From the NCBI RefSeq assembly GCF_001050235.1, contig NZ_DF967972.1, positions 806,171-870,170 of the forward strand: 64,000 nt of DNA, written 5' to 3'. The translations under genes were made by a program, and so were the position numbers. Positions 34 to 43,590 of this stretch are shown one piece after another. The notes under the pieces were generated by a model. The model made no database searches. It was not told the DNA's origin and saw nothing but the letters and a program-made list of their open reading frames with translations. How positions within the stretch are numbered: position 1 is the first letter of the stretch; each line of letters opens with the position of its first letter. This DNA comes from Longilinea arvoryzae. GTDB taxonomy: Bacteria > Chloroflexota > Anaerolineae > Anaerolineales > Anaerolineaceae.

Positions 34-636
34 TCAGATCTTGCAATCCGCCAGCGCTCCCAGGACACTGTTCAACGTCGGATAATCGTCCCGTAATAGC
101 GTAATGAGTTCTTGGGATGCCTTGTTGACCCATTCGTCATTTCCGCATGCCTTTTGCGCCGCAGCCGTCTTCTGAATGTGCGCCGCAAGCAGTTCTCCGA
201 TGGGCAGCTCGGCGGCTCGCAGCACGTGCCGGAAGTATCCGAACCTTCCCGCGGCGGTGAAGCGGCACAGCTCGGCCTCGCTGCACGGGTAGATCGCGTC
301 CAGGGTCAGCGGCGGGCGCGGCGGCAGCAGGTGCGAGACGGCCCCGGCCTGCTCGTAGCCCACGAACAACACGCTCACCTCGACCGGCACGTTGCGGTTC
401 TCGCGGTTGTCGCGAATGACCTCCTCGGTGATCGCGTCGGAGGTGACCAACTGGCGCACCAGCCCGTCGTCGTCGATGTGAATGTCGTGAATCAGCCCGA
501 AGACCTGCAGCCCATCGGCCAGCGGGATGCGCACCAGGTCGCCGAAGGCCGGCGCGCTCAACTGCGAAACGCGGCAGCCCACCACGCAGCCGGTGATGCC
601 CGAGCGCAGCAGGCGTCCAATCTCGATTTCAGCCAT
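34..636 (-). CDS. Hypothetical protein (about 200 aa) with an N-terminal beta-barrel-like segment that may be a HAS-barrel; encoded immediately downstream of the NurA-like gene with an 8-nt overlap; no Walker motifs
   Basis: Long ORF; internal ATG at 636 preceded by a purine-rich RBS (aagggaag); start overlaps the NurA stop, consistent with translational coupling. The N-terminus (IEIGRLL..GCVVGCRV..GDLVRIPL) is barrel-like and the C-terminus helical. Assignment is by resemblance only. Confidence 0.45.
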   Translation of the reverse strand: MAEIEIGRLLRSGITGCVVGCRVSQLSAPAFGDLVRIPLADGLQVFGLIHDIHIDDDGLVRQLVTSDAITEEVIRDNRENRNVPVEVSVLFVGYEQAGAVSHLLPPRPPLTLDAIYPCSEAELCRFTAAGRFGYFRHVLRAAELPIGELLAAHIQKTAAAQKACGNDEWVNKASQELITLLRDDYPTLNSVLGALADCKI

Positions 637-1816
637 TGTATCTTCCCTTTCCGCCGGATATGGCGTTCTTGGCGTTTTGTTTGTGCGAGCCGCCTTCCGG
701 CTCGATGCCCTGTTTGCGCAGTTCGAAGGCAATCATGTCGCCGATCTGGCGCTTCTCCTCGAAAGTCACCACGGCAATCTCGTGGGCGCGGTGCAGTGCG
801 TAGGGATAGGCCCTGGGGCCCATCATGCGGCACTGCTCGAGCAGCACGGCGTGAATCGCGCCGGTGACGGCCGCATCTTCGGCAGCCCAGGCCGGGATCT
901 CGACGCGCGCCAGGTAGGGTCTGGCAGCGCCGACGTTGATGTAGAAAAAGTGCGGGCGGGCGGGTTCGCTGAACTCGCGCGCGTCGGTCGATTCGAGGGC
1001 AAAGACCGCCGAACGCTGCCCCGGTTCGAGCAGGCTGCCCAACAGGGCCACGTCGCTGACGCGCCTGAACGGGCGGTGGTCCCTGGCATTCGCCAGGTCA
1101 TCGGCAGGCGCGTCGGCCAGTTCGAGCAGGCGCACCAGCAGGTCGGCTCCGGGCTTGTCGACGTAGCCCGCCATGGCGATCTCGCGCCTGGCCATCTCGT
1201 CCGAGACGGCCAGAAAATCGGCAAAGGCGTCCTTCACCGCCTTGTCGGCGTTTGCGCCGGCCAGGTCGCGCGGCTTGCGATACAGCAGCGGCCCGTCGAC
1301 CAGCGCCAACACCAGATCATCCTCCTGCCTGGCCTTCTCCAGCAGGAAATTGCGCTCGCGCAGGTCGCGCTTGAGCGCCACCAGGTCCTCGTCGATCATG
1401 CCGCCCTGGGCCGGGTAGAGCTCGTCGTCGCTAAAGAGGTGCCCCTCCACGGATTCGCTCGGCGCCCCGCCGCCGCCCATGCGGAACAGCCCGACGTTGA
1501 TCAGGCCGAAGATGACCTCGTCGTGCCGCGATGGAGTCACCTGCGAGCCGTCCGCCGCCAGCACCACCGGCCGGGCGTGCCCGGTGGGCGGGCCGGCGTG
1601 GAAGTCGAGCGGCTCGGTGAGCGGGCGGGCGCAGCGCAGGCCGAACTGGCGCGCGGCAATCTCGACGCGCTGCTGCAGGAAATCGAGCTCGCCGGCATAC
1701 TGGCGGAGCAGCGCTCTGGCTTTCTCCAAACGGTCGGTCAGCTCGCGCTGCTTCAGGCCGGCCTGCGAGGCGTTTTCCTGGATCTGGCGCTTGATATCCT
1801 GATAATTGACGGGCAT
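629..1816 (-). CDS. NurA-like 5'-3' nuclease domain protein
   Basis: 395-aa ORF with motifs resembling NurA catalytic boxes (VVLAADGSQ near the N-terminus, LALVDGPLLY mid-protein); the size is typical of bacterial NurA. High-GC coding bias. Confidence 0.5.
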   Translation of the reverse strand: MPVNYQDIKRQIQENASQAGLKQRELTDRLEKARALLRQYAGELDFLQQRVEIAARQFGLRCARPLTEPLDFHAGPPTGHARPVVLAADGSQVTPSRHDEVIFGLINVGLFRMGGGGAPSESVEGHLFSDDELYPAQGGMIDEDLVALKRDLRERNFLLEKARQEDDLVLALVDGPLLYRKPRDLAGANADKAVKDAFADFLAVSDEMARREIAMAGYVDKPGADLLVRLLELADAPADDLANARDHRPFRRVSDVALLGSLLEPGQRSAVFALESTDAREFSEPARPHFFYINVGAARPYLARVEIPAWAAEDAAVTGAIHAVLLEQCRMMGPRAYPYALHRAHEIAVVTFEEKRQIGDMIAFELRKQGIEPEGGSHKQNAKNAISGGKGRYNG

Positions 1817-1920
1817 GGCAGCCTCGGATGGAACAAATGTTTGAGGATATTATAGCGTGAATTGGGGAGGAGGTATGCGTTGATGAGGTATGGGGTATGC
1901 GGTATGGGTATTCGGAAGGA

Positions 1921-1993
1921 GCCGCCGCGTAGGTTGGGTTGAGTGGCGTGAGCCCATGCCCGGATTGGACCTATACCGGAACGAAACCCAACA
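1921..1993. repeat. Copy A of a dispersed structured element with conserved ends CGCGTAGGTYGGGTTGAG ... CGAAACCCRACRTT, whose terminal 8-bp arms (gttgggtt/aacccaac) can pair
   Basis: Direct comparison with 42003-42098 shows about 20/23 identity at the 5' box and about 12/14 at the 3' box, with a variable internal hairpin region. Confidence 0.6.
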
Positions 1994-2098
1994 TTCCAAA
2001 CCGCCGCCATCGGATTTCTGATTGATATGCCGATGGTAAAGATTCGTTCATTGAATTCAAGAAGAATTCATAATGCATCCCTATTCCTTTGAACGCAT

Positions 2099-2461
2099 TT
2101 ATCCGGCTTTCATAATCACATTCTCTATCCAAAATTTGCGATACTTTTTTCGGGTTTCCAACACATATGGTAACCGCTGGGCAACCAGTTCCTCTTGCGT
2201 CATACCGTCGAATTGTAAACCGCGTTCGGCGGCATGCTCGAAGAAATGATTGTCTGCGGTGTTACAGAAGTTGCATGCAGCGACGATGAAGTCCGGATTG
2301 TCGCGATTAGGATGGCCTTTCGGCAGCAAATGATCCCAGGAGAGTGAGAGCCAGGTGTCGAAGGATTTTGTGCCGTCCGCGCCGCAGTAGCGGCATTTGA
2401 AACCGTCCCGGAGGAGGATCGTGTATGCATAACCTCGCAGGGCGTCATCGAATTTGGGCAT
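2099..2461 (-). CDS. HNH endonuclease (small standalone, about 120 aa)
   Basis: C-x2-C ... WDHLLP ... N ... C-N-F-C-N arrangement typical of the HNH/His-Me finger; AGGAGG RBS 5 nt upstream of the ATG at 2461; sits in an AT-rich patch. Confidence 0.8.
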   Translation of the reverse strand: MPKFDDALRGYAYTILLRDGFKCRYCGADGTKSFDTWLSLSWDHLLPKGHPNRDNPDFIVAACNFCNTADNHFFEHAAERGLQFDGMTQEELVAQRLPYVLETRKKYRKFWIENVIMKAG

Positions 2462-2617
2462 GGAACGCCTCCTGAAAGACCTATTCGTTTGAAAAAGCAC
2501 TATCGATGTGAAAATAAATGATTCCGAATACTACGTATGTAGCACAAAAGGTAGGAAATAGGCAACCTGCCAAAGGTGAAAATCAATCGATTCCACGCGT
2601 TGTACAATGGAGACACT

Positions 2618-3169
2618 ATGGACGATTCCGCACTGAGTTTTCCCATCCTGCACACCGGGCGGCTGCTGCTGCGCGAACTGCGCCCGGCCGACATCGCCCA
2701 ATTCCACCGCATCAAATACGACCCGGCCATCGTCAGCCACTACTACGCCAGACCCAAAACGTACGCCGAATCGCTGGCCAAGCTGGAGGCGCTGAGGACC
2801 GACAACCGCACACGCGAGTCGCTGACCTGGTGCATCGCGTCGATCGGCGAGCCGGACACGCTGATCGGCACGATCTGCCTGTGGAATTTTCGCCTGGCCG
2901 AAGAGGCCGCCGAGCTGGGCTACGAGCTGCTGCCGGAGTACCAGCGTAAAGGCATCATGAGCGAGGCGGCGCGCGGCGTGATCGCGTTTGGCTTTGCGGA
3001 GCTGGGGCTGCGCCTGATCGACGCGTACCCGAACCCGCAGAACGCGGCGTCGTGCGGATTGCTGGAGCGGCTGGGGTTCGAGAGGGTGGGGGTGCTGGAG
3101 GAGGAAGAGGCGGGGGAAGTGCGGAAGTATGTCCGGTATGAGATGGTTTTCGAAAAGGGAAAGGCTTGA
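2618..3169 (+). CDS. GNAT family N-acetyltransferase (RimJ/RimL-like)
   Basis: Acetyltransferase fold signature (LLLRELRP..D, ..GY.L..E.QRKGIMSEA..); high GC like the core genome. Confidence 0.75.
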   Translation: MDDSALSFPILHTGRLLLRELRPADIAQFHRIKYDPAIVSHYYARPKTYAESLAKLEALRTDNRTRESLTWCIASIGEPDTLIGTICLWNFRLAEEAAELGYELLPEYQRKGIMSEAARGVIAFGFAELGLRLIDAYPNPQNAASCGLLERLGFERVGVLEEEEAGEVRKYVRYEMVFEKGKA

Positions 3170-3243
3170 TCGGAAATGAGCTGTTCAGGCCGCGGTTTAG
3201 GAAGGTCGCGCGGTCGGGAGACCGGCGACAGCGGGACTCGAAA

Positions 3244-5037
3244 TTAGCCAAAATCTTGTAATGGAATATTTAATTGATCAATCATCCAATCTGGAAATCT
3301 ATTCCGAAGCAAATTCTCTTGTGTTCCAATCGGAACGCCAATTACTAATATTTTCCTGGGTCTTGTCATTGCCACATATGCAGTTCTGACCTCTTCATTA
3401 TTCAAATCATTTGTTGTTATTTGGGTAATATTTCCTTTCGCCCCTCCTCTGGTGCTGTCATTTACAATATATAAGACGGCTTCGTATGTTTTTCCTTTCG
3501 CGGCGTGAATGGTCTCAATAGTAATTCCATCGACAACAGATTCTGGATCAGAAAATAGTTTAGAAACGGGTTCATCGTAATAGGCGGTAAATTTATGGCG
3601 ATTCATCACTTGGTATTGTTTTATACTAAGATCTAATTTACCTCTGTCAACCTCTCTCCAACTAGGATGGGCATCAAACCACTCATGAAGTTTTCGTGTC
3701 CCATTTATCAACCATAACCTAAGTGCATCACCAGAATTTGGGAGTAATTTCATAATTTGCCATATACCTAAAGGCCATCCCGGATTTAGGTTTCTCGCTT
3801 CTATTTGATTTTCCAGATCGAATTTAGAGATATATCGATCTCCAAATAATATCCGAACTAATGCAGCTTCTGATGAGTTGTGAGATCTGATAATGTCGCC
3901 TTTATCGCGGTAATATGCAACCTGAGCGAGTAGCCGTGTAATAGCATGGTTCCAAGGATCACCCATATCAATAATATCTCTTAATTTTAATAATTGCCTA
4001 TTTGTCCGAACTAAAACAGATATCTCAGATGGTTTTATCTCTAATCCCTGCCTCTCACATAAATTGATAAAATCATTCTTTATGGTTGATAAATGATTTG
4101 GATCATATGTCACTAGTTTTGGGGGCAAACTGAAATTTGCATCAGTTCCTATTGCTTGTGATATATTTCGCAGTGAACTTGAAAAATTCTTAGTTAAGTT
4201 ACAAATTAGCTGTGAACTACGCCGATTCTGATCCAAATAATATGGTTCTTGCCATTCCAATTGACTTGTTTTTCTCATGAATATATCAGGTCTTGCGTCT
4301 CTCCACTCATATATTGCTTGATCTGGATCACCAACTAGCATGACCTCTGAAAGGCCATTCATTACGAGCAAATCGATAATCCTCATTTGAATTTCAGATG
4401 TATCTTGAGCCTCATCAATGATCATTTCTGGAAAACGAGTTGATAGAGATTTGGCAATTCCGGGATACCTTTCGAGAATTCTCATTGTAAAATATTCAGC
4501 ATCCGATTGAGTTGCAAGTCCCATTCTATTGAATCTATTTTTAAGGATCCGACAATGAGTAAAATCAAAAGGACAATTCACTAATCCACCAATAAGTCTG
4601 CCATTAATGTCGTATGAGAAATTCTCCAACTTGCATGAATAACATTTTTGATTTCCCCAATATAAATTGAGTTCTTTTTGATTCCATACATTGCTTCCCA
4701 TTCCAATTAAATTAGGCCTACCAGAACAGCCCATAACGAGATGACCGAATGGAAGAAATATAAATGTATTTATGAAATGATCAATTGTTCCAAGAAAATG
4801 TGGAAACGGAGGAGAGGGACTAAACCCATCGTTTATAAGATCACCGCTAATTTCAGAGTGAGCCACATTTGTGAACGATAGAGTCGCGATACCTGATGAT
4901 TGTCTTTTCCAATCCTTCATTCTTCGCATGAAACGAGTAGAAACAGTGAGAGTCTTTCCACTTCCAGGACAAGCAATTACAACAAATTTTCCTGCTCTAG
5001 TTACTGCCGGTAGTTGTTCGGGTGATAAAATAACCAT
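3244..5037 (-). CDS. UvrD/PcrA-like superfamily-1 DNA helicase (GajB-like partner of an OLD-family nuclease)
   Basis: Walker A (ACPGSGKT), Walker B (IIDEAQDTS), motif III (VGDPDQAIYEWR), motif V/VI (TIHAAKGKTYEAV, YVAMTRPRKILV). Low GC (about 40%). Confidence 0.85.
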   Translation of the reverse strand: MVILSPEQLPAVTRAGKFVVIACPGSGKTLTVSTRFMRRMKDWKRQSSGIATLSFTNVAHSEISGDLINDGFSPSPPFPHFLGTIDHFINTFIFLPFGHLVMGCSGRPNLIGMGSNVWNQKELNLYWGNQKCYSCKLENFSYDINGRLIGGLVNCPFDFTHCRILKNRFNRMGLATQSDAEYFTMRILERYPGIAKSLSTRFPEMIIDEAQDTSEIQMRIIDLLVMNGLSEVMLVGDPDQAIYEWRDARPDIFMRKTSQLEWQEPYYLDQNRRSSQLICNLTKNFSSSLRNISQAIGTDANFSLPPKLVTYDPNHLSTIKNDFINLCERQGLEIKPSEISVLVRTNRQLLKLRDIIDMGDPWNHAITRLLAQVAYYRDKGDIIRSHNSSEAALVRILFGDRYISKFDLENQIEARNLNPGWPLGIWQIMKLLPNSGDALRLWLINGTRKLHEWFDAHPSWREVDRGKLDLSIKQYQVMNRHKFTAYYDEPVSKLFSDPESVVDGITIETIHAAKGKTYEAVLYIVNDSTRGGAKGNITQITTNDLNNEEVRTAYVAMTRPRKILVIGVPIGTQENLLRNRFPDWMIDQLNIPLQDFG

Positions 5038-5047
5038 GCTAACCTTT

Positions 5048-7075
5048 TTAATCTGTTTCTATCACGGCTACATGTTCGATAACTTCAATAATATATTGCG
5101 GAATTGTAAATTGGGTGACGAAGTTACCTTGCTGATTTCGTTTGTTGAGTATAGTAGCCAGCCTTTGAGCAAACTCCGCCTTTGTATCTTTACAAGCTTG
5201 CCAAAAATAAATTGCTTTGAGACTAGGATCATCGATTGCAGCAAATAATCCTCTCAATTCAGCCGTTTTCCTTGGATGAATAGGATCAAGTGCTGATAAA
5301 AGCACAGGAAGATTTAGATCGATTTGTGCTAACTCAAATTCAAAAGTCTTATATGCCATTTTCACTAACAGGTTTTCATTTTGCAGACTCTGGGCTCTTT
5401 CTGCTCTTGGAGAAATATGCCCATTTGGTAACTTTGTCAATATCTCTTCAGGACTCATTTCATCAGTAATTCTGTTTACATCATCCTTTGAGGTGCAACG
5501 ATCATCATCAGTCATAATCACAGATCGAATGTTAATTCTTTTATTTTCATCTGGATCGTTGAAAAGAAGTGCGAAAGGTTCAAAGGCGGTTCCAGATATG
5601 TTTACTACCTCTATTGCATTTTGATCTAACCTTCTATTCATGCGATTTGCAAATATTGGCAGCAATAACGCTTCAGAGATTCCTTCTACAAATATTACGC
5701 CTCTAGAAAAGAAGAGCTGAGATTTGGTAGTATCCAAATATCGTCGTAAGTCATCCTTTTGATCCGGAAGGAGGGGACAATTTATTAGTCCAGTTACAAT
5801 TACTTTATCTTCCTCATTGTGGTTAATCAGTTGAATATTATCAATATCAGCTCTTGATACAAGAGTAGGTGAGTGCGATGTTACAAAGACTTGAACTGAG
5901 TTTGGGGCTGCTCCTCCATTTTGATTTGAGCAAACCCTCTTGAAAAAGTCAAACACCAAATTTTGTAATTGAGGGTGCAGATGGGATTCGGGTTCCTCAA
6001 TAAGAAGAGTGTTGTATGAACATGTTTCGACCTTTTTTAATTCTTGTAAGTCACCAAGTACTGTTCCCATATAAATCAGATTGTTATACCCCATACCATT
6101 CTGATCTAGCTCAAAATAAATAGTATGCTCCAATATTTCCGAATAAATTTCGAGGCCAATATTTTCTTTTTCTTGTTCGGACAACTCACTTATAGAAATA
6201 TAAACACTATTACCCACTACTGTTATTTTTCCATTCAATATCTGTTCAAGTGAATTATTTTGTGCAATCATTGATTGCCATGTTTTTTGGTTTAGAACTG
6301 CTTTTGTTTTATTATTATTGGGTGGAAGTAATGCACGTAAAGAATCGGTAACCCTACCAAAATCAGGTAAAACCAGCCCCAGATTGATATTCTGCTTTAG
6401 CCGGTTCCCTTCAATATCAAGAAGATGATCATTTATTACGGTGCTTGCCTGTTTCACCTTAGGTTCGTTTAAAATTTTTCGATTTGCCGTTTTTATATGG
6501 GCTAGTATTGCCTCTTTTTCATCATCGTTTTCTATCAGCTTTCTAACAAGCTTTCCAATCCTGCTACCCTTGCCTGGACGCAAATCACTTTCCGCATCAC
6601 GTAAAGCCCCAAGGTAATAATGATTTATGAATTCTAAAGTGCCGTAAGAAACAGGCTGACCTTGTTTTTCTCCACCCCATATCTGAGTATTTATTTTTTC
6701 AAATCCTTTAGTAGATTCCTTTTTTACCCTGATATGTAGTTGTGCAGTAAAAACAGCTCCTTCTACAACGAGCAATTCATAAAACCCAGCTTGTTCATCT
6801 TCATTCAAGTCAATAAAATTCAAATCAAAAGATATTTCACTCGCATAGATTCCATTTTCATCAAGATGAAAATCAGAGGTAGTAACAAAAATTTCTCTTT
6901 TCCCTATCCCCAAGCTAAACACAATCCTAAGCGCATCAATTAGGGACGATTTGCCTGAGTTATTTTCACCAATTATGATATTTACACCTGGCTGAAATGT
7001 GAAAACAATCCCAGTTTCATCAAAGCATCTAAAATTTTTAATAGCGATTTTTTGTAGATACATTTTTCCTCTCAA
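5048..7075 (-). CDS. OLD-family AAA/ABC-type ATPase with a C-terminal TOPRIM nuclease domain (GajA-like, Class 2 OLD)
   Basis: N-terminal Walker A (IIIGENNSGKSS), ABC-like Q-loop/signature, Walker B (LLIEEPESHLHPQ) and H-loop (VFVTSHSP); the C-terminus carries the TOPRIM motifs (VIFVEGISEALLLP, IMTDDD). Followed within 10 nt by the UvrD-like gene. Low GC. Confidence 0.85.
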   Translation of the reverse strand: MRGKMYLQKIAIKNFRCFDETGIVFTFQPGVNIIIGENNSGKSSLIDALRIVFSLGIGKREIFVTTSDFHLDENGIYASEISFDLNFIDLNEDEQAGFYELLVVEGAVFTAQLHIRVKKESTKGFEKINTQIWGGEKQGQPVSYGTLEFINHYYLGALRDAESDLRPGKGSRIGKLVRKLIENDDEKEAILAHIKTANRKILNEPKVKQASTVINDHLLDIEGNRLKQNINLGLVLPDFGRVTDSLRALLPPNNNKTKAVLNQKTWQSMIAQNNSLEQILNGKITVVGNSVYISISELSEQEKENIGLEIYSEILEHTIYFELDQNGMGYNNLIYMGTVLGDLQELKKVETCSYNTLLIEEPESHLHPQLQNLVFDFFKRVCSNQNGGAAPNSVQVFVTSHSPTLVSRADIDNIQLINHNEEDKVIVTGLINCPLLPDQKDDLRRYLDTTKSQLFFSRGVIFVEGISEALLLPIFANRMNRRLDQNAIEVVNISGTAFEPFALLFNDPDENKRINIRSVIMTDDDRCTSKDDVNRITDEMSPEEILTKLPNGHISPRAERAQSLQNENLLVKMAYKTFEFELAQIDLNLPVLLSALDPIHPRKTAELRGLFAAIDDPSLKAIYFWQACKDTKAEFAQRLATILNKRNQQGNFVTQFTIPQYIIEVIEHVAVIETD

Positions 7076-8272: not shown

Positions 8273-8375
8273 GAAGAAAGAAGAACGACTGACGTCGTTA
8301 CTACAGATTCAACCGGTGGTAAGGGCAATTCATGAATTGCCCTTACCATCGGCCTGTTCATCCTGAATATCCTGT

Positions 8376-9209: not shown

Positions 9210-9419
9210 ATCGAACTCCGTTGTCGAAACGATCGGGAAACTGTATTCAGTATAAATCAAAATGGGGGAAGAAGGTGAAGAGTGATGGGTGAAGAGGGAA
9301 GAGGGAAGAGGTATGCGGGATGGGGGATTTGGAAAGAGGGTGAGGGGGGAAGCGGGAAGAAAACCATATACAATAGAAGATAGCGATCGTCCAAATACGA
9401 ACCATTTTCAAAGATAAAG

Positions 9420-19059: not shown

Positions 19060-19195
19060 AGGGTCGATTCGGTATTCGTCAATTCGGTATTCGTTGATTC
19101 GGAATACGGAGTCCGAATATCGAGTACCGAATACCGCGTACCGTGTACCGCATACCGAATACCTCATACCGCGTACCGAATACCGTTTTCACTCC
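19060..19195. repeat. Cluster of reiterated cggtattcg / cgaataccg words forming a long imperfect inverted repeat (hairpin-capable)
   Basis: The left half carries attcggtattcg twice and the right half carries the reverse-complement cgaataccg words several times; related ggtatKcg words also occur at 1868-1915 and 9320-9330. Confidence 0.7.
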
Positions 19196-19230: not shown

Positions 19231-19809
19231 TTGGAGACCAACTTGGAACTCGTAACCGATATCATCATTGCCGTTGGACTGGCAATGGATGCGTTTGCCG
19301 TGTCGCTGGGTGTGGGCACCAGCGGCCGCGCCCGGGATGGGCGGTCCGTTTTTCGCCTGGCGTTTCATTTTGGCTTTTTTCAGGGCGGAATGACCCTGTT
19401 GGGTTGGCTGCTGGGCAGCACCGTGGTCGATCTGATTGCCAACTTCGACCACTGGCTGGCGTTCGTCCTGCTGGCCTGGGTGGGTCTGCGCATGGTCAAG
19501 GAAGGTTTTGCCAGGGACGGCGAGGAAAGCGCCTTTGCGGCGGATCCATCGCGCGGGCGCGTTTTGATGGTCCTGTGCGTGGCCACCAGCATCGATGCGC
19601 TGGCGGTGGGCCTGAGCATGGCCATGCTCGACACGAACGTGATCTTTGCCAGCGTGGTCATCGCCGTCATCACATCCGCCCTTTCGCTGGTGGGCCTGCT
19701 GGGCGGCAACCGGTTGGGCAGCCACTTCGGCAAGCGCATGGAAGTGCTCGGCGGTCTGCTGCTGGTGGGTATTGGGGTGAGGATACTGGTGAGCCATCTG
19801 TTGGCATGA
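19231..19809 (+). CDS. mntP: Manganese efflux pump MntP (DUF204 family)
   Basis: Two-repeat DUF204 architecture with MDAFAVSLG and IDALAVGLS signature boxes; probable TTG start; a TATAAT-like -10 at about 19203-19211. Confidence 0.8.
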   Translation: METNLELVTDIIIAVGLAMDAFAVSLGVGTSGRARDGRSVFRLAFHFGFFQGGMTLLGWLLGSTVVDLIANFDHWLAFVLLAWVGLRMVKEGFARDGEESAFAADPSRGRVLMVLCVATSIDALAVGLSMAMLDTNVIFASVVIAVITSALSLVGLLGGNRLGSHFGKRMEVLGGLLLVGIGVRILVSHLLA

Positions 19810-19811
19810 AG

Positions 19812-19885
19812 AGTGAAGAGTGAGGAGTGAAATGAAAGAATTCACGGTTCACTCTTCACCCATCACTCCTCACTTCTTCTTGATA
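19812..19885 (+). terminator. Inverted repeat of gtgaaga/gtgagga words immediately after the mntP stop (hairpin; weak U-tract)
   Basis: gtgaagagtgaggagtgaaatg ... ttcactcttcacccatcactcctcac are near-perfect reverse complements. Confidence 0.45.
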
Positions 19886-27563: not shown

Positions 27564-28706
27564 ATGCAACGAATTCGTTCGATCTTCCGGCGAGGCGGAG
27601 CGGTGTGGCTGGCGCTGCTGCTGGTTTTGCTGTTCACCTGGACCGCCAGCGCGGCCGGCGGCGGCACGACCATCTATCTGCCGTACGTGGCCAAACAGCC
27701 CACGCCTACCGCCACGCCTACACCCTTACCGCCGCTGCCGTCCGATTATTCGGTAAGTTATTACGTGCAGACCAACAGCAATCAGGCGGCCTACGACAAG
27801 GGTTGTGCGCTCGGCCAGACCGATTTGAACCTGGCCGGCGCTCAGGACCGGCTGGTCATCCTTGACTTCGGCCAGCCCTGGTATGACGATTACGGCACGC
27901 TGGGAACGTTGATTTTCCGCGTTCCGCCGAACACGAACTGGACGTTCATGTCGATCGGCGCCATTGGCGAATTCGCCAAGAATTTTGCCACCGGTTACTG
28001 GGTCTGCACGGGCAGCGATAAGGCCTCACACCTGACTCTGGGCATTGGCACCAGCAATTACCTGGGCACCGATCCGCCGGTGGACATGAAAGTGCCCGGC
28101 ACGGTTCGAAATCACGGCAGCCAGTGGGCTCAAATGGTGTTGAACGTGAATGCCTGGTTGTCCACCCAGCATTACGCCGCGCAGGTGACCGCCGCCGGCG
28201 CCAATGACATGGAACTCTCCTGGGCCACTTCCGCGCTGACCCGCGCCTGGGTGGACGGGTTCGATTCGGCGGATAACAATTCAGCTCTCTACTATAATTA
28301 CGGCGCCTGCGAGGGCTGCCCGCAGACTTATTACGCCGACATCGGTTCGTGGACTGGAGGGAAGAATTATTCCTGGCATGTCGAAGATGTCTGGTACATT
28401 TCCTGGGGCATCCCGCCGGCCTGGGTGGTGCCGGAGATCTATTTGAGCAATGAAGCCAACGCCAAGCAATGGCAGACCGTCAGCAAATACGCCAAGGTGC
28501 AAAAGGGAATGCGCATCGATTTCTCAGGCGTGATGACCCAATCCGGCGCCTGCCAGCAGCGCGGCGGCTGCACCGGCACCAGCAGTGATACGATGAACAC
28601 CCCACAGGAGGGTTGGAACCAGTTGTGGAAGTACACCTTCGCCGATCCCGACACGCGCATGAACCGCCTGCCCTGGATGACGGACATCCGCTATTGGACC
28701 AACTGA
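27564..28706 (+). CDS. Secreted hypothetical protein (signal peptide plus Pro/Thr linker; Trp-rich domain of unknown function)
   Basis: Start at the internal ATG giving a classic signal peptide (MQRIRSIFRRGGAVWLALLLVLLFTWTASAAG); PTPTATPTPLPP linker. Confidence 0.6.
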   Translation: MQRIRSIFRRGGAVWLALLLVLLFTWTASAAGGGTTIYLPYVAKQPTPTATPTPLPPLPSDYSVSYYVQTNSNQAAYDKGCALGQTDLNLAGAQDRLVILDFGQPWYDDYGTLGTLIFRVPPNTNWTFMSIGAIGEFAKNFATGYWVCTGSDKASHLTLGIGTSNYLGTDPPVDMKVPGTVRNHGSQWAQMVLNVNAWLSTQHYAAQVTAAGANDMELSWATSALTRAWVDGFDSADNNSALYYNYGACEGCPQTYYADIGSWTGGKNYSWHVEDVWYISWGIPPAWVVPEIYLSNEANAKQWQTVSKYAKVQKGMRIDFSGVMTQSGACQQRGGCTGTSSDTMNTPQEGWNQLWKYTFADPDTRMNRLPWMTDIRYWTN

Positions 28707-28759
28707 AGAGGAGTGATGAGGGATGGGTCGAAGCGTTGAGAAAAAATGGATTACAATTT

Positions 28760-28801
28760 CTCATAACTCATAACTCATAACTCATAACTCATAACTCGTA
28801 A
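28760..28801. repeat. Tandem heptanucleotide repeat (ctcataa x5 followed by ctcgtaa)
   Basis: Six contiguous 7-bp units read directly from the sequence, about 40 bp upstream of the 28839 gene. Confidence 0.85.
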
Positions 28802-28838
28802 CGAAGAACGAATCAACCCCTCACGAATAACGCAACCT

Positions 28839-29516
28839 ATGAAACGCATCTACTTCTTTATCGGAACCCTCTTACTGATCGGCCTGCTCTTCTGGGGCGG
28901 GAGCGTGCTCGCCAGCTCGAAGACCCCCGAACAGCAGCAGCTCGATTCGTTGCAGGACCAGGCCGCCAACGCTTCAGACCCGGCCGTGAAGGCGCTGCTG
29001 CAGCAGAAGGCCGAGCCGTTGAGCGCGGCCCAGGCTGCCCAGGCGACCGCCCAGGCCAACGCGCCGGATAAGCCCAGCGACGTGTGCGGGCTGCGACCGG
29101 CGGCCGATCCGAACGCCACCCCGGCCCCGACGATCGAAATTCCGCGCGGCATCAGCGACTGGCTGCAGCCGCCCTTTTCGCCGCAGGAATTCAGCGTGAC
29201 CAATCAGTGGAACGACCAGGTGGACGGCGTCTGGCTGACCGCCTACGCCGGCGTGCTGGGTGATGACCCCGATCAGGGCGCGATCGTCGCCGTGGATGCG
29301 CAGGGCAACTACTTCCGCTACCTGTTGAACAGGGGCTCCGGCGCGGCCCGATTTGCCGCCGCTGACGGCTCGCTGCTGACCGTCGAAACCGGCAACGGAT
29401 CGACCTACCAGCTCGATATGGCCGCTTTGACGCTCACCGACGCGCAGGGGCAGGTGCTGCAGGGCGTCCAGCAGGCCGCTCCGGCTACCGTGAGCAGTTC
29501 AGGTCCGTGCCAATAG
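28839..29516 (+). CDS. Secreted hypothetical protein (signal peptide; Gln/Ala-rich N-terminus)
   Basis: Signal peptide (MKRIYFFIGTLLLIGLLFWGGSVLA); no recognisable domain. Confidence 0.55.
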   Translation: MKRIYFFIGTLLLIGLLFWGGSVLASSKTPEQQQLDSLQDQAANASDPAVKALLQQKAEPLSAAQAAQATAQANAPDKPSDVCGLRPAADPNATPAPTIEIPRGISDWLQPPFSPQEFSVTNQWNDQVDGVWLTAYAGVLGDDPDQGAIVAVDAQGNYFRYLLNRGSGAARFAAADGSLLTVETGNGSTYQLDMAALTLTDAQGQVLQGVQQAAPATVSSSGPCQ

Positions 29517-29521
29517 ACCGT

Positions 29522-30202
29522 TCAGGCTTCGCCCGGCGGCCCTTTTTCGACATCCATTAAATCGGTTTCACGAAGGCCCTGACGCAACATCACGGCCTTC
29601 TTTATCGTTTCCAACAGCAGCGGCCACAACTGCGGGCGCGCAACCTGGAACTGCTCCAGCATGTTCTGGATGGATTTGATATCTTGCGCCAGAGCCAGGG
29701 TTTCTGGCGGTACTGCATAGCTGCGCTTGACCGATAACAGCTTGCGCTCTTCGATCACGTTCAGCAGGCCGCGCGCGGCCAGACCGTTCTGGATGCGCGT
29801 CACCACTTCGGCAAACGGATCATCGTAACTGGTCTTCAACCAGACGTAGATCAGGCGCGCCAGGTCACCGCTTTCTTTATGCACGTCGCTCGAACCGGCG
29901 GCAGCCAACACATCGGCTTCCAGGGTTTGAGCGGGCCAGTCGGCGGATTTTCCGGTCGGTTCGACGGAGAGAATTTCTTTCTTGACGAGGCCGAACCAGC
30001 GCGAGTGTTCGCGCTGCGATAGCAGCAGGGTTCCTGTTTGAAGATTGGCCAACAGCGCGCTGGCCAGCGCCGCCTGCACCAGTTGGGCAAGATGGACTTC
30101 GCGGCCGGAATGCAGCAAGCGCGTGCGCCGGGAAGCGCGCGGTTCGCCGGCGAATTGTTCGCCGTTCAGGTAGACCAGTTCGCTGGGGGTCAACTGGGCC
30201 AA
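29522..30202 (-). CDS. Hypothetical protein
   Basis: 226-aa ORF with high-GC codon bias; no recognisable motifs. Confidence 0.45.
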   Translation of the reverse strand: MAQLTPSELVYLNGEQFAGEPRASRRTRLLHSGREVHLAQLVQAALASALLANLQTGTLLLSQREHSRWFGLVKKEILSVEPTGKSADWPAQTLEADVLAAAGSSDVHKESGDLARLIYVWLKTSYDDPFAEVVTRIQNGLAARGLLNVIEERKLLSVKRSYAVPPETLALAQDIKSIQNMLEQFQVARPQLWPLLLETIKKAVMLRQGLRETDLMDVEKGPPGEA

Positions 30203-30341
30203 AGGGGTCTCCTTGAAAAGGGATAACGCTAAGTGAGCTAAATTTTATCAGAAATCCGGCGCCCGGCCAGAAGAATAGTTGTGCAAATTGATTAATAGAA
30301 CTACAATTCTATTATCCAACCACTTGAAAAAGGAGATCCCC

Positions 30342-30689
30342 ATGTCGAAGATCAAGCGCATCCCCACGCCCTTCAGTTATTCAGACGCTGTTCAGGCCGG
30401 CGACACGGTTTATCTGGCGTTGCACCGCGGATTCGCCGAGGATTTCGAAGGCCAGTGCCGCAACGCGCTGGAAGGCATTCGCAAGTCGCTGGCGCATTTC
30501 GACCTGGGATTGGAGAGCCTGGTCAAGGTAAACGTGTGGCTGAAGCACGTCAGCGACCTGCCCAGGATGGAGAAGATTTTCTTCGATTATTTCGAAAAGG
30601 ACGGTTTTCCGGTGCGCATGACCTCCACCACCGAGTTCATCGACGAGGATTGCCTGATCATGATCGACGGGGTGGCTTTTATCGAATAG
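30342..30689 (+). CDS. RidA/YjgF/TdcF-family reactive-intermediate deaminase
   Basis: Size (about 115 aa) and sequence pattern typical of the YjgF family; AAAGGAG RBS before the ATG at 30342. Confidence 0.75.
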   Translation: MSKIKRIPTPFSYSDAVQAGDTVYLALHRGFAEDFEGQCRNALEGIRKSLAHFDLGLESLVKVNVWLKHVSDLPRMEKIFFDYFEKDGFPVRMTSTTEFIDEDCLIMIDGVAFIE

Positions 30690-36580: not shown

Positions 36581-36773
36581 CTGTCAGGACACTCCGAGGA
36601 CAAGAAAGCGTACGTTAATGACAAAGGTTCGTTGTGGATCCCACCGCGGCTTGTCTTCAATCAGCAATCCGCCATCAGAAATCAGCAATTCATTCAGCCG
36701 CCTAGCCGGGTAAGGGTCAACATTCAGCATTTTTTCCTGCCCCTTTCTTTCCAATCTGCTGTAAGATATTCCC

Positions 36774-40005: not shown

Positions 40006-40160
40006 CCACGGAGACACGGAGTCCACGGAGGAAGAGAAGAAAACAGCCACAGAGTTCACAGAGGACACAGAGGGGAAAAAAGAAGAAGAAAAAACAAGGA
40101 ATTCTCTCTTCTTTTCTATGAATCTTCTCCGTGTCCTCCGTGTCTCTGTGGTGAATCCCT
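40006..40160. repeat. Inverted-repeat element built from cacggag/cacagag words (cacggagacacggag ... ctccgtgtcctccgtgtctctgtgg) between the GH127 and GH2 genes
   Basis: The two arms are reverse complements about 100 nt apart. Confidence 0.7.
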
Positions 40161-40178: not shown

Positions 40179-41960
40179 TTGTCAATCGAACCTTTACGCA
40201 CTCCCTGGGTGCCCGATAGCCCGATCCCGCTGCCCGAATACCCGCGCCCGCAGATGACACGCCCGCACTGGGCCAACCTGAACGGCGCCTGGCAGTACGC
40301 CATCCTGCCCAAAGATGCCCCAGCGCCGCAGACCTTCGACGGCGAGATTATGGTGCCGTATGCGGTCGAGTCGCTGCTCTCCGGTGTGCAGAAACCCCTG
40401 CTGCCGGAACAGCGGCTGTGGTATCGACGCAACTTCAGCGATCCGCGCCCACAGTGGAGCGATGCCCACGTTTTATTGCACTTCGGCGCGGTGGATTACC
40501 TGTGCCGGGCCTGGCTGAATGGCGTTGAACTGGGCCAGCACCGCGGCGGTTACCTGCCCTTCACCTTCGACATTACGGACGTGCTTCGGGAGGGTGATAA
40601 CGAACTGCTGGTCTCGGTCTGGGACCCGACCGACGCGGGCTTGCAACAGCGCGGCAAGCAGGTCCTCAAACCCGGCGGCATCTGGTACACGCCCGTTTCC
40701 GGCATCTGGCAGACCGTCTGGCTGGAGGGTGTGCCGGCGGTGAGCATCGCGGGCCTGAAATTAACGCCCGACCTGGACTGGCAGACGCTGCAGGTCGAGG
40801 TGCGCCTGCGCGGCGGAACGTACGCGGTGGACCTGTGCCTGGAGGTCGAAGCCATGGACGGTGGCCAGGTGGTGGCCAGCGGCGCCTGCCCGGCGGATAA
40901 ACCCCTGCGCCTGAATATTCCCGGCTCGCACGCCTGGAGCCCGGACGACCCGCACCTTTATGATCTGCGGGTGCGCCTGGTGCAGGCCGGGAATGTGCTG
41001 GATGAAGTCGGCAGTTACTTTGCCATGCGCAAGTTCGGACTGGCCGCCGACGGCGCGGGCCACCTGCGCTTCACGCTCAACGACCGGCCGCTGTTCCTCT
41101 ACGGCCCGCTGGATCAGGGTTACTTCCCGGACGGCCTGTACACGCCGCCCAGCGAGGCAGCCATGCTCTACGACATCGAGTACGTGCGCAATCTGGGCTG
41201 CAACATGATCCGCAAGCACATCAAAGTCGAGCCACTGCGCTGGTATGCCGCCTGCGACCGTCTGGGTATGATCGTCTGGCAGGATATGCCCAACGGCGGG
41301 CGCATCGACGGCATGCCGGTGGCGATCGCCGCCCAGGCGTTCGGCTTCTGGCGCAGCGACCGGCGCTGGTTGAGCCGTTTCGGCCGCGCCGAGGAGGCCA
41401 ACCGGGTCGAATATCGCGCCGACCTGCAGGCCATGGTCGATCATCTGTACAACGCCGCCTGCCTCGCCGTGTGGGTACCCTTCAACGAGAGCTGGGGGCA
41501 GTTTCATGCCAAAGAAACCGCCCAATGGCTCAAGGGCTACGATCCCACCCGCCTGGTGGATCACGCGTCCGGCTGGTTCGACCAGGGCGGCGGCGACTTT
41601 CAAAGCAAGCACATCTATTTTAAAAAGCTTTCCCGTCCCCGGCCCGACCGGCGCGCCTTCGTCATCTCCGAATTCGGCGGTTACAGCCTGACGACGCCCG
41701 GCCACGTTTGGGATGTGACCCAGAAGTTCGGCTATCGTTTCTATGACACGCCCGAAGAATTGACAGCCGCCTACCTGAAGCTGTTGGAAGAGGAACTCCT
41801 GCCGCTCATTCCGCAGGGTTTGACCGCGGCGATCTACACCCAGACCACGGACGTGGAAATCGAGATCAACGGCTACCTGACCTACGACCGCAAGGTTGAA
41901 AAGATGGACGCCGAGGCGGTTCGTAAAGCGCACGAGAAATTGATTAATTCACAGGGATGA
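40179..41960 (+). CDS. Glycoside hydrolase family 2 (beta-galactosidase/beta-glucuronidase/beta-mannosidase type)
   Basis: YPRPQ..R..W..LNG.W N-terminal sugar-binding box, [22 protein letters not shown] motif, and a TIM-barrel segment with conserved acidic residues. Confidence 0.75.
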
Positions 41961-42002: not shown

Positions 42003-42098
42003 GCGTAGGTCGGGTTGAGGGACGAGCAATCAAGATTGTGGCCGGTGAAAAGTATCGTTGAGTTTGGATGGCCTGTCCCGAAACCCGACGTTATGGCC
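42003..42098. repeat. Copy B of the dispersed structured element (CGCGTAGGTCGGGTTGAGGGACG ... CCGAAACCCGACGTT)
   Basis: Shares both terminal boxes with 1921-1993 and lies at the left edge of a low-GC patch. Confidence 0.6.
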
Positions 42099-42258: not shown

Positions 42259-43590
42259 TTAATTAAGCTTGCAGAATTCACTCGTTGCGCTGTATGACAC
42301 ATTCATGAAACCCCAATCGCCGATGTGGCCTTTGAGGACATCCGGATAATCGGTATCCAGGATCTTAACCGCTTCTAGACAGGAGGTCATGGCCTTGTGG
42401 GTAACTTCGTATTGCGTGGCAAACTCCTTCGCCACAACGACAAATTCGTTGCCCGGCGTGCCGTCCGGAAAAGATTCGCTCATCTCATGAATGACCTCAT
42501 CCGCCATATCGACCCGATTTTGCGAAAACCAGATCACCACGATGCGGAAAAACGCAAAGGCCTTTTGGTAAGGCTCGGCTAATTCCGTTTGATTTTCAGT
42601 CAATTCATAAGTTGTGAAATAGCTGGAAAGATTCGAGTCTCTGGCAGCAATTTCATAATATGCAATCGCCATCATCAGATTGCCCTTCTTGGATGCGTCA
42701 GCACCATCTCCAAGATAATGGACCCGATCGTCACCTGGCGGTAGATCGGAATAAGAATACTCAAAATTCTTTCCATTCCAGGCAAATACATCTATTTCGT
42801 CCCGGCTTGCACCGCCCCAGAACCCTGTCGAATTTCCAGTCAGGACCAAAACCTCTTTGGTTCCATCGCCATCCTGGTCATCCAGCATGATCTCGCTACC
42901 GACTAGGCCACCGCCAAGAAATATTTCTTTCCATTGATTTTCGCGCCACCCGAATGCATAATATTTCGTTCCCCATCCAATAGTCGCCCTGATTTTGACA
43001 ATGATAAATGGAAGTTCCTTTTCAAAAATTTGTTCTACGAACAGAATGTCACCAGAAGAGACATCCTCAGTTTGAAAGGATTGGACCAGTCGATACGCAT
43101 TTGTACTGCATTGGTAAATATTTATAAGATTTATATCGTCCGAAGGCGAGCCTTCGTTAATTATTGTAATTGACCCGCTCACAACAATTTCTTCCAGCGC
43201 ATCCCCGTCCAAATCCGCAACCGCTGCGCTGACTCTGAGCAAATCCGTGGATGCAAGCAGCGATTTCAGGCTGGCAGGATCTCCTCCATGGTTTACATAA
43301 TCCAAAATGGCGGCATCCAGCTCAACCAGGTTGCTGTAGCCTTTGAGTTCAGCGCCGCCGGTCAAGACCGGGCATCTGTGTTCCGGGGTGGGTGTTGAGG
43401 TTGCCTTCATCTCAGGCGTGTTCGTTTTCGTCTGGATTGCCCTGGTCGCTGTGCCTGTCGCTAGGACTGGCGGAATATTTTGGCCAGGAGCACAGGCCGC
43501 TAACGCTATCATTGCCATGAGTAGAAAGAAAATAACGGGATGAAAATTATTACGATAATATTTCATCTTTTTTGCCTGTTTTCGAGTCAC
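42259..43590 (-). CDS. Secreted lipoprotein with FG-GAP/VCBS-like repeats (LDGDALEEIVV, DQDGDGTKEVLV)
   Basis: Signal peptide with lipobox (LAACA), Thr-rich linker; low GC. Confidence 0.55.
   Translation of the reverse strand: MTRKQAKKMKYYRNNFHPVIFFLLMAMIALAACAPGQNIPPVLATGTATRAIQTKTNTPEMKATSTPTPEHRCPVLTGGAELKGYSNLVELDAAILDYVNHGGDPASLKSLLASTDLLRVSAAVADLDGDALEEIVVSGSITIINEGSPSDDINLINIYQCSTNAYRLVQSFQTEDVSSGDILFVEQIFEKELPFIIVKIRATIGWGTKYYAFGWRENQWKEIFLGGGLVGSEIMLDDQDGDGTKEVLVLTGNSTGFWGGASRDEIDVFAWNGKNFEYSYSDLPPGDDRVHYLGDGADASKKGNLMMAIAYYEIAARDSNLSSYFTTYELTENQTELAEPYQKAFAFFRIVVIWFSQNRVDMADEVIHEMSESFPDGTPGNEFVVVAKEFATQYEVTHKAMTSCLEAVKILDTDYPDVLKGHIGDWGFMNVSYSATSEFCKLN

What the first reader, a model, noticed from the sequence alone, without database searches (positions are those of the whole stretch)
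1921..1993. Dispersed structured element with conserved ends, copy A, flanking the HNH/Gabija low-GC region
A roughly 75-nt sequence (CGCGTAGGTTGGGTTGAG ... GAACGAAACCCAACATT) has terminal 8-mers that are reverse complements (gttgggtt/aacccaac), so it can close a stem. It shares both terminal boxes with a second copy at 42003-42098, at about 85% identity in the boxes. Each copy sits exactly at the transition from high-GC core DNA to a low-GC patch. The family may mark integration sites (att-like), be a MITE, or encode a small structured RNA associated with island acquisition.
Basis: seen in the sequence. Interest (0 to 1): 0.65.

Follow-up and report, generated by a model that had tools for sequence, protein, structure and literature searches.

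The report
Long-loop REP hairpins of a RAYT family
The two look-alike sequences are copies of a known kind of small bacterial hairpin repeat (REP elements, moved by a dedicated RAYT transposase), here in an unusually long-looped form; they are not markers of island integration, so the finding is largely ordinary.

Summary
Copy A (1929-1994) and copy B (42005-42091) share GTAG+GTYGGGTT+GAG ... CGA+AACCCRAC+RT, with a compensatory T-A to C-G change in the 8-bp stem. They are the only two copies in the window, which comes from Longilinea arvoryzae.

The boxes are the two halves of a GTAG-headed repetitive extragenic palindrome (REP). Its 31-34-nt short form occurs in Cyanobacteria, Poribacteria, Desulfobacterota, Gammaproteobacteria and Chloroflexota. 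In eight related loci the element lies directly beside a REP-associated tyrosine transposase (RAYT) gene. In six of these it lies on both sides, with the GTAG heads pointing outward in five.

Copies A and B are long-loop variants. Copy A falls on a sharp 65-66-nt length class that also flanks RAYT genes.

The element is extragenic: 7% of copies lie in long open frames, against 72% of random positions. Across the family it shows no link to GC boundaries (p = 0.10).

There is no integrase and no second att-like half-site. Both window copies do sit at synteny breakpoints relative to their closest relatives. Copy A is conserved at the orthologous site in a relative whose NurA protein is 80% identical.

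Verdict: a new variant of a known kind, of modest interest. The unexplained 37-nt minimum loop length is the only real oddity.

The parts
1929..1994 (+). Copy A: 66-nt long-loop REP. It comprises the GTAG head (1929-1932), 5' stem arm GTTGGGTT (1933-1940), GAG (1941-1943), a 38-nt variable interior (1944-1981), CGA (1982-1984), 3' stem arm AACCCAAC (1985-1992) and tail AT (1993-1994).
   Evidence: Pattern match. The ssDNA fold shows an unpaired GTAG, an 8-bp stem, a 2x2 GA/GA internal loop and an inner stem; energy -11.6 kcal/mol, z = -2.3. It is intergenic, between the NurA start (1816) and the HNH stop (2099). An orthologous copy lies at L123 225-289(-) with both boxes identical.
42005..42091 (+). 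Copy B: 87-nt long-loop REP. It comprises the 5' box GTAGGTCGGGTTGAG (42005-42019), a 59-nt interior (42020-42078) that starts GGGAC and ends GTCCC, and the 3' box CGAAACCCGACGT (42079-42091).
   Evidence: Pattern match. The ssDNA fold has the same architecture; energy -16.9 kcal/mol, z = -3.7, with 0 of 200 shuffles folding as well. It lies between the convergent GH2 stop (41960) and the stop of ORF 42259-43590(-). The GTC/GAC stem variant is also found in short copies, for example from Poribacteria, and the 11 distinct GTC/GAC sequences include copy B.
42054..42067 (-). Degenerate inverted 3' box (CCAAACTCAACGAT) inside the loop of copy B. It may be the remnant of a nested REP. This is tentative.
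   Evidence: It is a 3-mismatch hit to the 3' box. Such hits are at chance frequency across the window (17 observed, 18.9 expected), so this one is only suggestive. Nested inverted REPs are common in the longer forms elsewhere.

Best explanation
Copies A and B are members of a widespread family of GTAG-headed repetitive extragenic palindromes (REPs).

The unit has this layout:
- an unpaired GTAG head;
- an 8-bp stem (GTYGGGTT/AACCCRAC);
- a conserved 2x2 GA/GA internal loop closed by a G-C pair;
- an apical part of free sequence;
- a 2-nt tail.

On single-stranded DNA this hairpin is the substrate of a REP-associated tyrosine transposase (RAYT, or TnpA-REP; an HUH/Y1 enzyme of the IS200 superfamily). 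The enzyme recognises the GTAG head and the hairpin foot, and cleaves and rejoins beside it. This spreads and maintains the repeats as non-autonomous elements.

Copies A and B are long-loop variants, with 38-nt and 59-nt interiors against 3-10 nt in the canonical 31-38-nt form. They sit where REPs usually sit: in spacers at gene ends. There they can also act passively as hairpins in mRNA 3' ends or as sites prone to rearrangement.

Shown here: family membership by sequence, stem covariation, extragenic location, and direct RAYT linkage of both short and long forms in other genomes.

Inferred: that a RAYT acts, or once acted, on these two copies in Longilinea arvoryzae, and any effect at the RNA level.
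For: 1. The two boxes are the halves of a palindrome. Its short form, GTAGGTTGGGTTGAG-GAA-CGAAACCCAACAT, recurs in 120 or more genome loci from Cyanobacteria, Poribacteria, Thermodesulfobacteriota/Desulfobacterales, Gammaproteobacteria, Brocadiaceae and Chloroflexota.

2. RAYT genes lie directly beside the element.
- Short form: L013 (Nostoc) has REP(+) 3836-3866, RAYT 3950-4492(-) and REP(-) 4623-4653. L047 (Microcystis) has a partial RAYT next to a copy.
- Long form: L129 has REP(+) 573-640, RAYT 667-1206(+) and REP(-) 1209-1277. L145, L199, L218, L221 and L241 also carry a RAYT beside a long form.
- The GTAG heads point outward in 5 of the 6 loci flanked on both sides.

3. The three RAYT proteins scanned (L013, L129, L145) score 194-209 bits on NCBIfam NF047646, REP-associated tyrosine transposase (cut-off 80). 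L013 also matches Pfam Y1_Tnp, and L145 matches E. coli TnpA-REP, PDB 4ER8, at E = 4.5e-42. The others were found by tblastn at about 51-62% identity to L013.

4. The stem covaries. At three stem positions the search pattern allowed either transition on each side independently. Of 267 distinct copies, 223 are GTT/AAC, 18 are GCT/AGC and 11 are GTC/GAC. Those two classes are fully compensated. Only 15 copies are changed on one side, and 5 of those are G-T pairs. L127 (Bellilinea) adds a further compensated pair, GTCGGGTC/GACCCGAC.

5. The element is extragenic. 20 of 278 copies lie inside an open frame of at least 150 codons, against 72% of random positions.

6. Copy A's interior length (38 nt) is the mode of a discrete long class. 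That class holds 61 distinct interiors of 31-45 nt, nearly all of them 37 nt or longer.

7. All forms fold alike as ssDNA.

8. Di Nocera et al. 2013 (PMC3733652) describe GTAG-tagged REP families in Cyanobacteria and Chloroflexi. Their GTAG-15 family has loops of 9-15 nt. That equals GAG + 3-9 nt + CGA here.
Against: - No RAYT gene lies in the 64-kb window (tblastn). The rest of the L. arvoryzae genome could not be read, so an active partner there is unproven.
- Only 2 copies occur in 64 kb, and no short-form copy. High copy number in this genome is therefore not shown.
- At 66 and 87 nt, the copies exceed the 20-40 bp usually used to define REPs.
- The equation with the published GTAG-15 family rests on loop length and host range only. 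The consensus is in a figure that I could not read.
- Copy A has been stable at one orthologous site since the split from a relative whose NurA is 80% identical. This fits a relic as well as a live element.
Confidence: 0.85

Rival explanations
1. The REP copies are hotspots, or scars, of genome rearrangement and insertion. The hairpin attracts insertions or recombination, which is why foreign low-GC blocks (HNH/Gabija and the glycosyltransferase patch) abut them. This adds to the REP identity rather than replacing it.
For: - Homology between the window and L123 (NurA 80% identical) runs through copy A and stops at window position 2002, 8 nt beyond the element. Beyond that point the genes are unrelated.
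- In three relatives the gene after GH2 is RidA. In the window, GH2 is followed by copy B and a 47-52% GC patch, and the RidA block lies inverted at 27.5-30.7 kb.
- Longer forms elsewhere carry whole REPs nested in the loop, so the hairpin does receive insertions.
- From my own knowledge, not checked here: REPs are published targets of insertion sequences (Tobes and Pareja 2006).
Against: - There are only two cases.
- Breakpoints have to fall in spacers, and spacers are where REPs live.
- Across the family there is no excess of GC discontinuity at copies (p = 0.10).
- The region upstream of NurA differs in every relative, with or without a REP.
- The Gabija block proper is separated from copy A by a high-GC GNAT gene.
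Confidence: 0.25
2. The element acts mainly as a structured RNA. It could be an mRNA 3'-end stabiliser or attenuator, or a small RNA. The conserved stem and GA/GA loop would then be RNA features.
For: - Both copies lie downstream of gene ends.
- G-T (G-U) pairs occur among the stem variants.
- Copy B folds well as RNA on both strands, z = -3.6 and -3.1.
- Tandem G-A pairs are a common RNA motif (my own knowledge).
Against: - There is no Rfam match, even at E <= 1.
- There is no T-run terminator and no promoter beside either copy.
- Copy A does not fold better than shuffled sequence as RNA, z = -1.3 and +0.3.
- A-C mismatches (8 copies), which would read as G-U only on the opposite strand, outnumber G-T pairs (5 copies), so the wobble pairs favour no one transcribed strand.
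- The interior is unconserved.
- The RAYT linkage explains the conservation of the ends.
Confidence: 0.12
3. The element is an att-like integration site, or island border repeat, left by a site-specific recombinase that brought in the low-GC DNA.
For: Both copies lie at a GC drop and at a synteny breakpoint.
Against: - Neither patch holds an integrase or recombinase. They hold HNH, GNAT, GajB and GajA in one, and an unknown ORF plus a PMT_2 protein in the other.
- No box, even with 3 mismatches, lies at the far borders.
- Copy A is on the conserved side and is orthologous in L123, which lacks the island.
- The same element is an ordinary spacer repeat in hundreds of other loci.
Confidence: 0.03
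4. The element is a classical MITE, with terminal inverted repeats mobilised by a DDE transposase and flanked by target-site duplications.
For: It has conserved inverted ends with a variable interior, and it is multi-copy.
Against: - The inverted ends are only 8 bp, with asymmetric GTAG and AT extensions.
- I noticed no repeated bases flanking the copies listed with their 12-nt flanks, but I did not test this formally.
- The gene that recurs next to copies is a Y1/HUH RAYT, not a DDE transposase.
Confidence: 0.03

Closest known systems
REP/BIME elements of E. coli and their RAYT (TnpA-REP, PDB 4ER8; Nunvar 2010 PMC2817692; Messing 2012 PMC3479197)
   Same: - A GTAG head 5' of an imperfect hairpin with an internal mismatch.
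- An extragenic location at gene ends.
- A single RAYT gene bracketed by inverted copies.
- The RAYT next to the long form in L145 aligns with 4ER8 at E = 4.5e-42.
   Different: - The stem sequence is different.
- The family is nearly identical across several phyla rather than specific to one species.
- Copies A and B carry 38-nt and 59-nt apical inserts, for total lengths of 66 and 87 nt against about 35 nt.
GTAG-tagged REP super-family, probably family GTAG-15 of Anabaena, Nostoc and Cyanothece (Di Nocera et al. 2013, PMC3733652)
   Same: - The GTAG tag.
- A stem of 6-9 bp.
- Loops of 9-15 nt, which equals GAG + 3-9 nt + CGA in the short form.
- The hosts include Cyanobacteria and Chloroflexi.
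- Dimers and grouped copies occur.
   Different: - The identity of the consensus could not be checked, because it is only in a figure.
- That survey discarded repeats with unusual loop lengths (Methods), so the 65-66-nt class and the nested forms are not described there.
- The Chloroflexi genome seen in the paper's strain list is Chloroflexus aggregans; whether Anaerolineae were surveyed was not checked.
REPINs of Pseudomonas (Bertels and Rainey 2011, PMC3116915)
   Same: [quoted passage not shown] The 99-110-nt forms seen here contain two REPs in inverted orientation.
   Different: - In this family the second REP sits inside the loop of the first, rather than beside it.
- Copies A and B contain a single REP.
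- REPIN-RAYT systems are reported to be inherited vertically. This family and its RAYT clade (55-67% identity) span several phyla.
Subterminal hairpins of IS200/IS605 elements and their palindrome-associated derivatives
   Same: Both are recognised by a Y1/HUH transposase acting on ssDNA hairpins. The RAYTs here also score weakly on the IS200 model.
   Different: There is no transposase or TnpB cargo between the ends. There is one symmetric hairpin rather than distinct left and right ends.

Membership tests
REP (repetitive extragenic palindrome), GTAG-tagged | An imperfect palindrome able to form a stem-loop | tested here: met
   There is an 8-bp perfect stem plus an inner stem in both copies. 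Compensatory changes occur across the family.
REP (repetitive extragenic palindrome), GTAG-tagged | A conserved unpaired GTAG tetranucleotide at the 5' foot | tested here: met
   GTAG lies at 1929-1932 and at 42005-42008 and is unpaired in the folds. The collection scans fixed GTAG in the pattern, so its conservation elsewhere was seen only in copies found by mismatch-tolerant search. Most of those keep GTAG, and a few have GCAG, TTAG or GTTT.
REP (repetitive extragenic palindrome), GTAG-tagged | Extragenic location, mostly at gene 3' ends | tested here: met
   Copy A lies between the HNH stop and the NurA start. Copy B lies between convergent stops. Across the family, 7% of copies lie in long open frames, against 72% of random positions.
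REP (repetitive extragenic palindrome), GTAG-tagged | Length of about 20-40 bp | tested here: not met
   Copy A is 66 nt and copy B is 87 nt. The short form of the same family is 31-38 nt. The two copies are therefore filed as a long-loop variant.
REP (repetitive extragenic palindrome), GTAG-tagged | Many copies in the host genome | not testable with these tools
   There are 2 copies in 64 kb. Other genomes yielded several loci each even in the truncated scan, for example Scytonema NUACC26 and Poribacteria p16x63bins.62.
REP-RAYT system | A RAYT gene (Y1/HUH, NF047646) flanked by inverted copies of the same REP | tested here: met
   This is met in related loci: L013, L129, L145, L199, L221 and L241, plus partial cases in L047 and L218. 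It was not testable in L. arvoryzae itself, and no RAYT lies in the window.
att site of an integrative element | A direct repeat of the site at both island borders, plus an integrase or recombinase gene | tested here: not met
   There is no second box at the far borders, and no recombinase among the island genes.
MITE | Terminal inverted repeats matching a DDE transposon, with target-site duplications | tested here: inconclusive
   Inverted ends are present. I noticed no flanking duplication in the copies listed with their 12-nt flanks, but I made no formal test. The gene linked to the element is a RAYT. No empty-site comparison was available.
Curated structured RNA family (Rfam 15) | A match to a covariance model | tested here: not met
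   There is no match at gathering score over the whole window. There is none at E <= 1 around either copy.

The most novel reading that the evidence does not exclude
The apical loop of this REP family may be a programmed acceptor site. The evidence does not exclude that short REPs are converted into the 65-66-nt class by taking in about 34 nt of unrelated DNA, and then whole inverted REPs. This could be RAYT-mediated strand transfer into the loop.

That would explain three things:
- the near-empty gap between 11-nt and 36-nt interiors;
- the hard 37-nt minimum;
- the unrelated interiors.

The same property would make REP copies landing pads next to which foreign blocks, such as the HNH/Gabija region, accumulate.
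Probability: 0.08. Interest if true: 0.6.

Novelty: new variant of a known kind. Interest (0 to 1): 0.3.

Why it matters
For this window it mostly removes a false lead. The conserved ends are not an island attachment site or an unknown RNA. They are a REP hairpin of a RAYT-linked family.

Three points are of modest wider interest:
- One REP sequence and its RAYT clade are shared almost unchanged across Cyanobacteria, Poribacteria, Desulfobacterota, Gammaproteobacteria and Chloroflexota. This sits uneasily with the view that REP-RAYT systems are lineage-specific and inherited vertically.
- There is a discrete long-loop class, plus REP-in-REP nesting. Earlier surveys filtered out unusual loop lengths and so would have missed these forms.
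- Both copies mark synteny breakpoints, one of them beside a defence locus. That is worth a proper genome-wide test.

Tried and rejected
- **Literature search by sequence strings**. It returned only unrelated primer hits.
- **Look-ups of the window's own contig by three window proteins**. None was on record, so no genome-wide census of L. arvoryzae was possible.
- **Covariance model R1 of the short form, run over the window with filters off**. It found no short copies. It also did not recover copies A and B, because the long inserts exceed what the model tolerates, so it is useless for long forms.
- **tRNA and tmRNA** **and Rfam**. Nothing was found.
- **Terminator and promoter scans beside both copies**. 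Nothing relevant was found.
- **Hammerhead-like reading of UUGAG...CGAAAC.** I rejected this by eye, because the CUGAUGA core is absent.
- **Spacer-like origin of the interiors.** 55 distinct long-form interiors gave no match to 50,697 phage records at E <= 0.01.
- **A role for the adjacent HNH gene as partner of the element.** It gives only weak, sub-threshold family hits, and it is absent next to the orthologous copy in L123.
- **Clean-insertion model for the Gabija block.** The gene upstream of the copy in L123 has no counterpart anywhere in the window.

Full report
**Observation**

The described sequences exist. Copy A is GTAGGTTGGGTTGAG-[38 nt]-CGAAACCCAACAT at 1929-1994. Copy B is GTAGGTCGGGTTGAG-[59 nt]-CGAAACCCGACGT at 42005-42091. 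Both are on the + strand.

The combined two-box pattern occurs twice in the window, against 0.00 expected in shuffles. Searches allowing up to three mismatches per box find no third copy.

The stem 8-mers are exact reverse complements in each copy. The single difference between the copies (T in A, C in B) is compensated on the other arm (A in A, G in B).

The window carries no tRNA gene and no Rfam family.

**Organism and gene context**

The NurA protein (629-1816, minus strand) and the GH2 protein (40179-41960) are each 100% identical to proteins of Longilinea arvoryzae (Anaerolineae, Chloroflexota) on a 4.15-Mb contig.

- Copy A lies between the NurA start and the stop of a small HNH gene (2099-2500, minus strand). 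Next come a GNAT gene (2576-3169), GajB (3244-5037, minus strand) and GajA (5048-7075, minus strand).
- Copy B lies between the convergent ends of GH2 and an unannotated 443-aa ORF (42259-43590, minus strand). A PMT_2 glycosyltransferase-like gene follows.

**What the boxes are**

Exact-pattern scans of public collections show that the two boxes are the halves of a short palindrome. I let three stem positions on each side vary by transition, independently of each other.

The commonest form is the 31-mer GTAGGTTGGGTTGAGGAACGAAACCCAACAT. The hosts include:
- many Nostocales and other Cyanobacteria;
- Poribacteria;
- Thermodesulfobacteriota and Desulfobacterales;
- Gammaproteobacteria;
- a Brocadiaceae MAG;
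- Chloroflexota.

The layout is a GTAG head, an 8-bp stem, GA facing GA, a closing G-C pair, a short apical loop and an AT tail. As ssDNA, the short and long forms all fold into this shape.

**Link to a transposase**

In the Nostoc locus L013, a 180-aa ORF (3950-4492, minus strand) sits between two inverted copies of the element at 3836-3866(+) and 4623-4653(-). It matches Pfam Y1_Tnp.

A tblastn search with this protein over all fetched loci found homologues immediately beside the element in seven more contigs. Six of them carry long-loop forms. In L129, for example, the order is REP(+) 573-640, RAYT 667-1206(+), REP(-) 1209-1277.

The three proteins I scanned (L013, L129, L145) score 194-209 bits on NCBIfam NF047646, REP-associated tyrosine transposase, whose cut-off is 80. 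The L145 protein aligns with E. coli TnpA-REP (PDB 4ER8) at E = 4.5e-42.

Their closest database relatives are annotated as REP-associated tyrosine transposases in Scytonema, Anabaena, Coleofasciculus, Desulfobacter and Candidatus Kentrum. These are largely the same groups that hold the repeat.

A RAYT gene bracketed by inverted copies of its own REP is the diagnostic arrangement for REP-RAYT systems (Nunvar 2010, PMC2817692; Di Nocera 2013, PMC3733652).

**Further family-level tests**

- *Covariation.* Among 267 distinct copies, 223 have GTT/AAC at the free stem positions. Another 18 have GCT/AGC and 11 have GTC/GAC, and both of these classes are fully compensated. Only 15 copies are changed on one side. 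A Bellilinea copy adds another compensated pair, GTCGGGTC/GACCCGAC.
- *Location.* Only 7% of copies lie inside an open frame of at least 150 codons, against 72% of random positions in the same loci.
- *Published families.* Di Nocera et al. describe GTAG-tagged REP families in Cyanobacteria and Chloroflexi. Their GTAG-15 family has loops of 9-15 nt, which equals GAG + 3-9 nt + CGA here. Their Methods state that repeats with unusual loop lengths were discarded. I could not read the consensus in their figure, so the equation with GTAG-15 is probable but not shown.

**The long-loop forms**

Interior lengths fall into discrete classes:
- 3-10 nt, the short form;
- almost nothing from 11 to 36 nt;
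- a sharp class at 37-45 nt, with its mode at 37-38 nt;
- 66-84 nt, in which a complete or partial inverted REP is usually nested inside the loop of another.

The long class holds 61 distinct interiors of 31-45 nt. They are essentially unrelated in sequence: the median normalised edit distance is 0.56, against 0.58 for shuffled sequences. Most begin and end either with C-G or with 3-5 complementary G/C bases.

Copy A (38 nt) lies on the mode. Copy B (59 nt) lies between classes. Its loop contains a weak inverted 3'-box-like segment at 42054-42067, which may be the remnant of a nested REP.

Long forms flank RAYT genes directly, so they are cognate substrates and not decay products.

I have no explanation for why unrelated interiors keep a hard minimum of 37 nt. 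A spacer-like origin found no support: 55 interiors gave no match to phage genomes.

**The island-border idea**

*Against it:*
- There is no recombinase in either patch.
- There is no second box at the far borders.
- Across 94 copies elsewhere, the GC difference between the 2-kb flanks is no larger than at random positions (0.031 against 0.025, p = 0.10).
- At copy A the very low-GC Gabija block begins only at about 3200, after a GNAT gene with 60-69% GC.

*For a weaker version:*
- A relative with 80% identical NurA (L123) carries an orthologous copy of A at the same distance upstream of NurA. Both boxes are identical, the first 18 interior bases match at 17 positions, and the rest of the interior has diverged.
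- Homology between that contig and the window ends at position 2002, 8 nt past the element. Beyond that point the genes differ.
- In three relatives, GH2 is followed by RidA. In the window, GH2 is followed by copy B and a 47-52% GC patch, and the RidA block lies inverted at 27.5-30.7 kb.
- Those relatives carry other GTAG- or GTAA-headed palindromes in the same spacer.

So both copies sit at breakpoints. With only two cases, and with breakpoints confined to spacers anyway, this is suggestive and not evidence.

**Mechanism and verdict**

*Shown:* the two copies belong by sequence to a REP family whose short and long forms are bracketing partners of RAYT genes in other genomes. The stem is maintained by compensatory change. 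The family is extragenic.

*Inferred from established knowledge of TnpA-REP* (Messing 2012, PMC3479197; Corneloup 2021, PMC8266576): the enzyme recognises the GTAG head and the hairpin on ssDNA and cleaves and rejoins next to it, spreading the elements. Whether this still happens in L. arvoryzae is unknown. No RAYT lies in the window, and the rest of the genome could not be read. RNA-level effects, such as protection of mRNA 3' ends, are possible but untested. There is no terminator or promoter signal.

The finding is a real repeat family that is explained by a known kind of system. Its long-loop form is a variant that earlier surveys would have missed. Interest is modest.

Noticed in passing
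window 8316-8345; L085 3859-3889: GTGGTAAGGGCAATTCATGAATTGCCCTTACC is a perfect palindrome with a GTGG head. It lies between a small membrane-protein ORF and the LCM methyltransferase gene. A copy with 31 identical bases directly abuts a GTAG REP in a Chloroflexota MAG. It is probably a second REP-like family shared between Chloroflexota genomes.
   Followed up: partly
window 1873-1915, 9266-9311, 19063-19186, 19807-19831, 28760-28802, 36658-36689; L123 about 300-350: Tandem heptamer repeats (TACCGCA, CTCATAA, GGGAAGA, TGAAGAG and others) fill many intergenic spacers. One run lies directly beside copy A. The orthologous spacer in L123 has a different heptamer (CTCATYA). They resemble the short tandem heptamer repeats of cyanobacteria.
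   Followed up: partly
L139 3631-3729, L156 5560-5668, L130, L165, L169 and about 30 other metagenome loci: REP-in-REP nesting. A complete inverted short REP sits inside the loop of another REP of the same family, giving 99-110 nt in total with about 14 nt and 25 nt of spacer. This creates four mutually complementary arms. Identical copies recur in several samples.
   Followed up: partly
all loci: Interior lengths show a near-empty gap between 11 and 36 nt and a hard minimum of 37 nt for the long class, although the interiors are unrelated in sequence. This is unexplained.
   Followed up: partly
window 1822-1860 (minus strand); L123, L124, L125 upstream of NurA: A conserved block, TTCACGCTATAATATCC...AAACA(A/T)TTGTTC, lies just upstream of NurA in all four relatives. 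It is a likely promoter with a TATAAT box plus a conserved leader. It lies between copy A and the gene.
   Followed up: no
window 2099-7075: The defence locus consists of Gabija GajA (5048-7075, minus strand; AAA_15 plus OLD-like TOPRIM) and GajB (3244-5037, minus strand; UvrD-like helicase) at 35-44% GC. Beside it lie a GNAT acetyltransferase gene of host-like GC and a 133-aa HNH protein with only weak family matches.
   Followed up: partly
window 27564-30686 compared with 40179-41960; L248, L249, L250: The RidA-containing gene block that follows GH2 in three relatives lies about 10 kb upstream and inverted in L. arvoryzae. The rearrangement has one end at copy B.
   Followed up: partly
window 40010-40143: A long AG-rich inverted repeat (GGAGACACGGAG...CTCCGTGTCC) occupies the spacer between the GH127 and GH2 genes.
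   Followed up: no
L172 2563-2667: There is a tandem array of four 5' half-boxes (CGTGTAGGTTGTGTTGAG repeated) in front of a normal short REP. This suggests slippage or repeated half-site joining.
   Followed up: no
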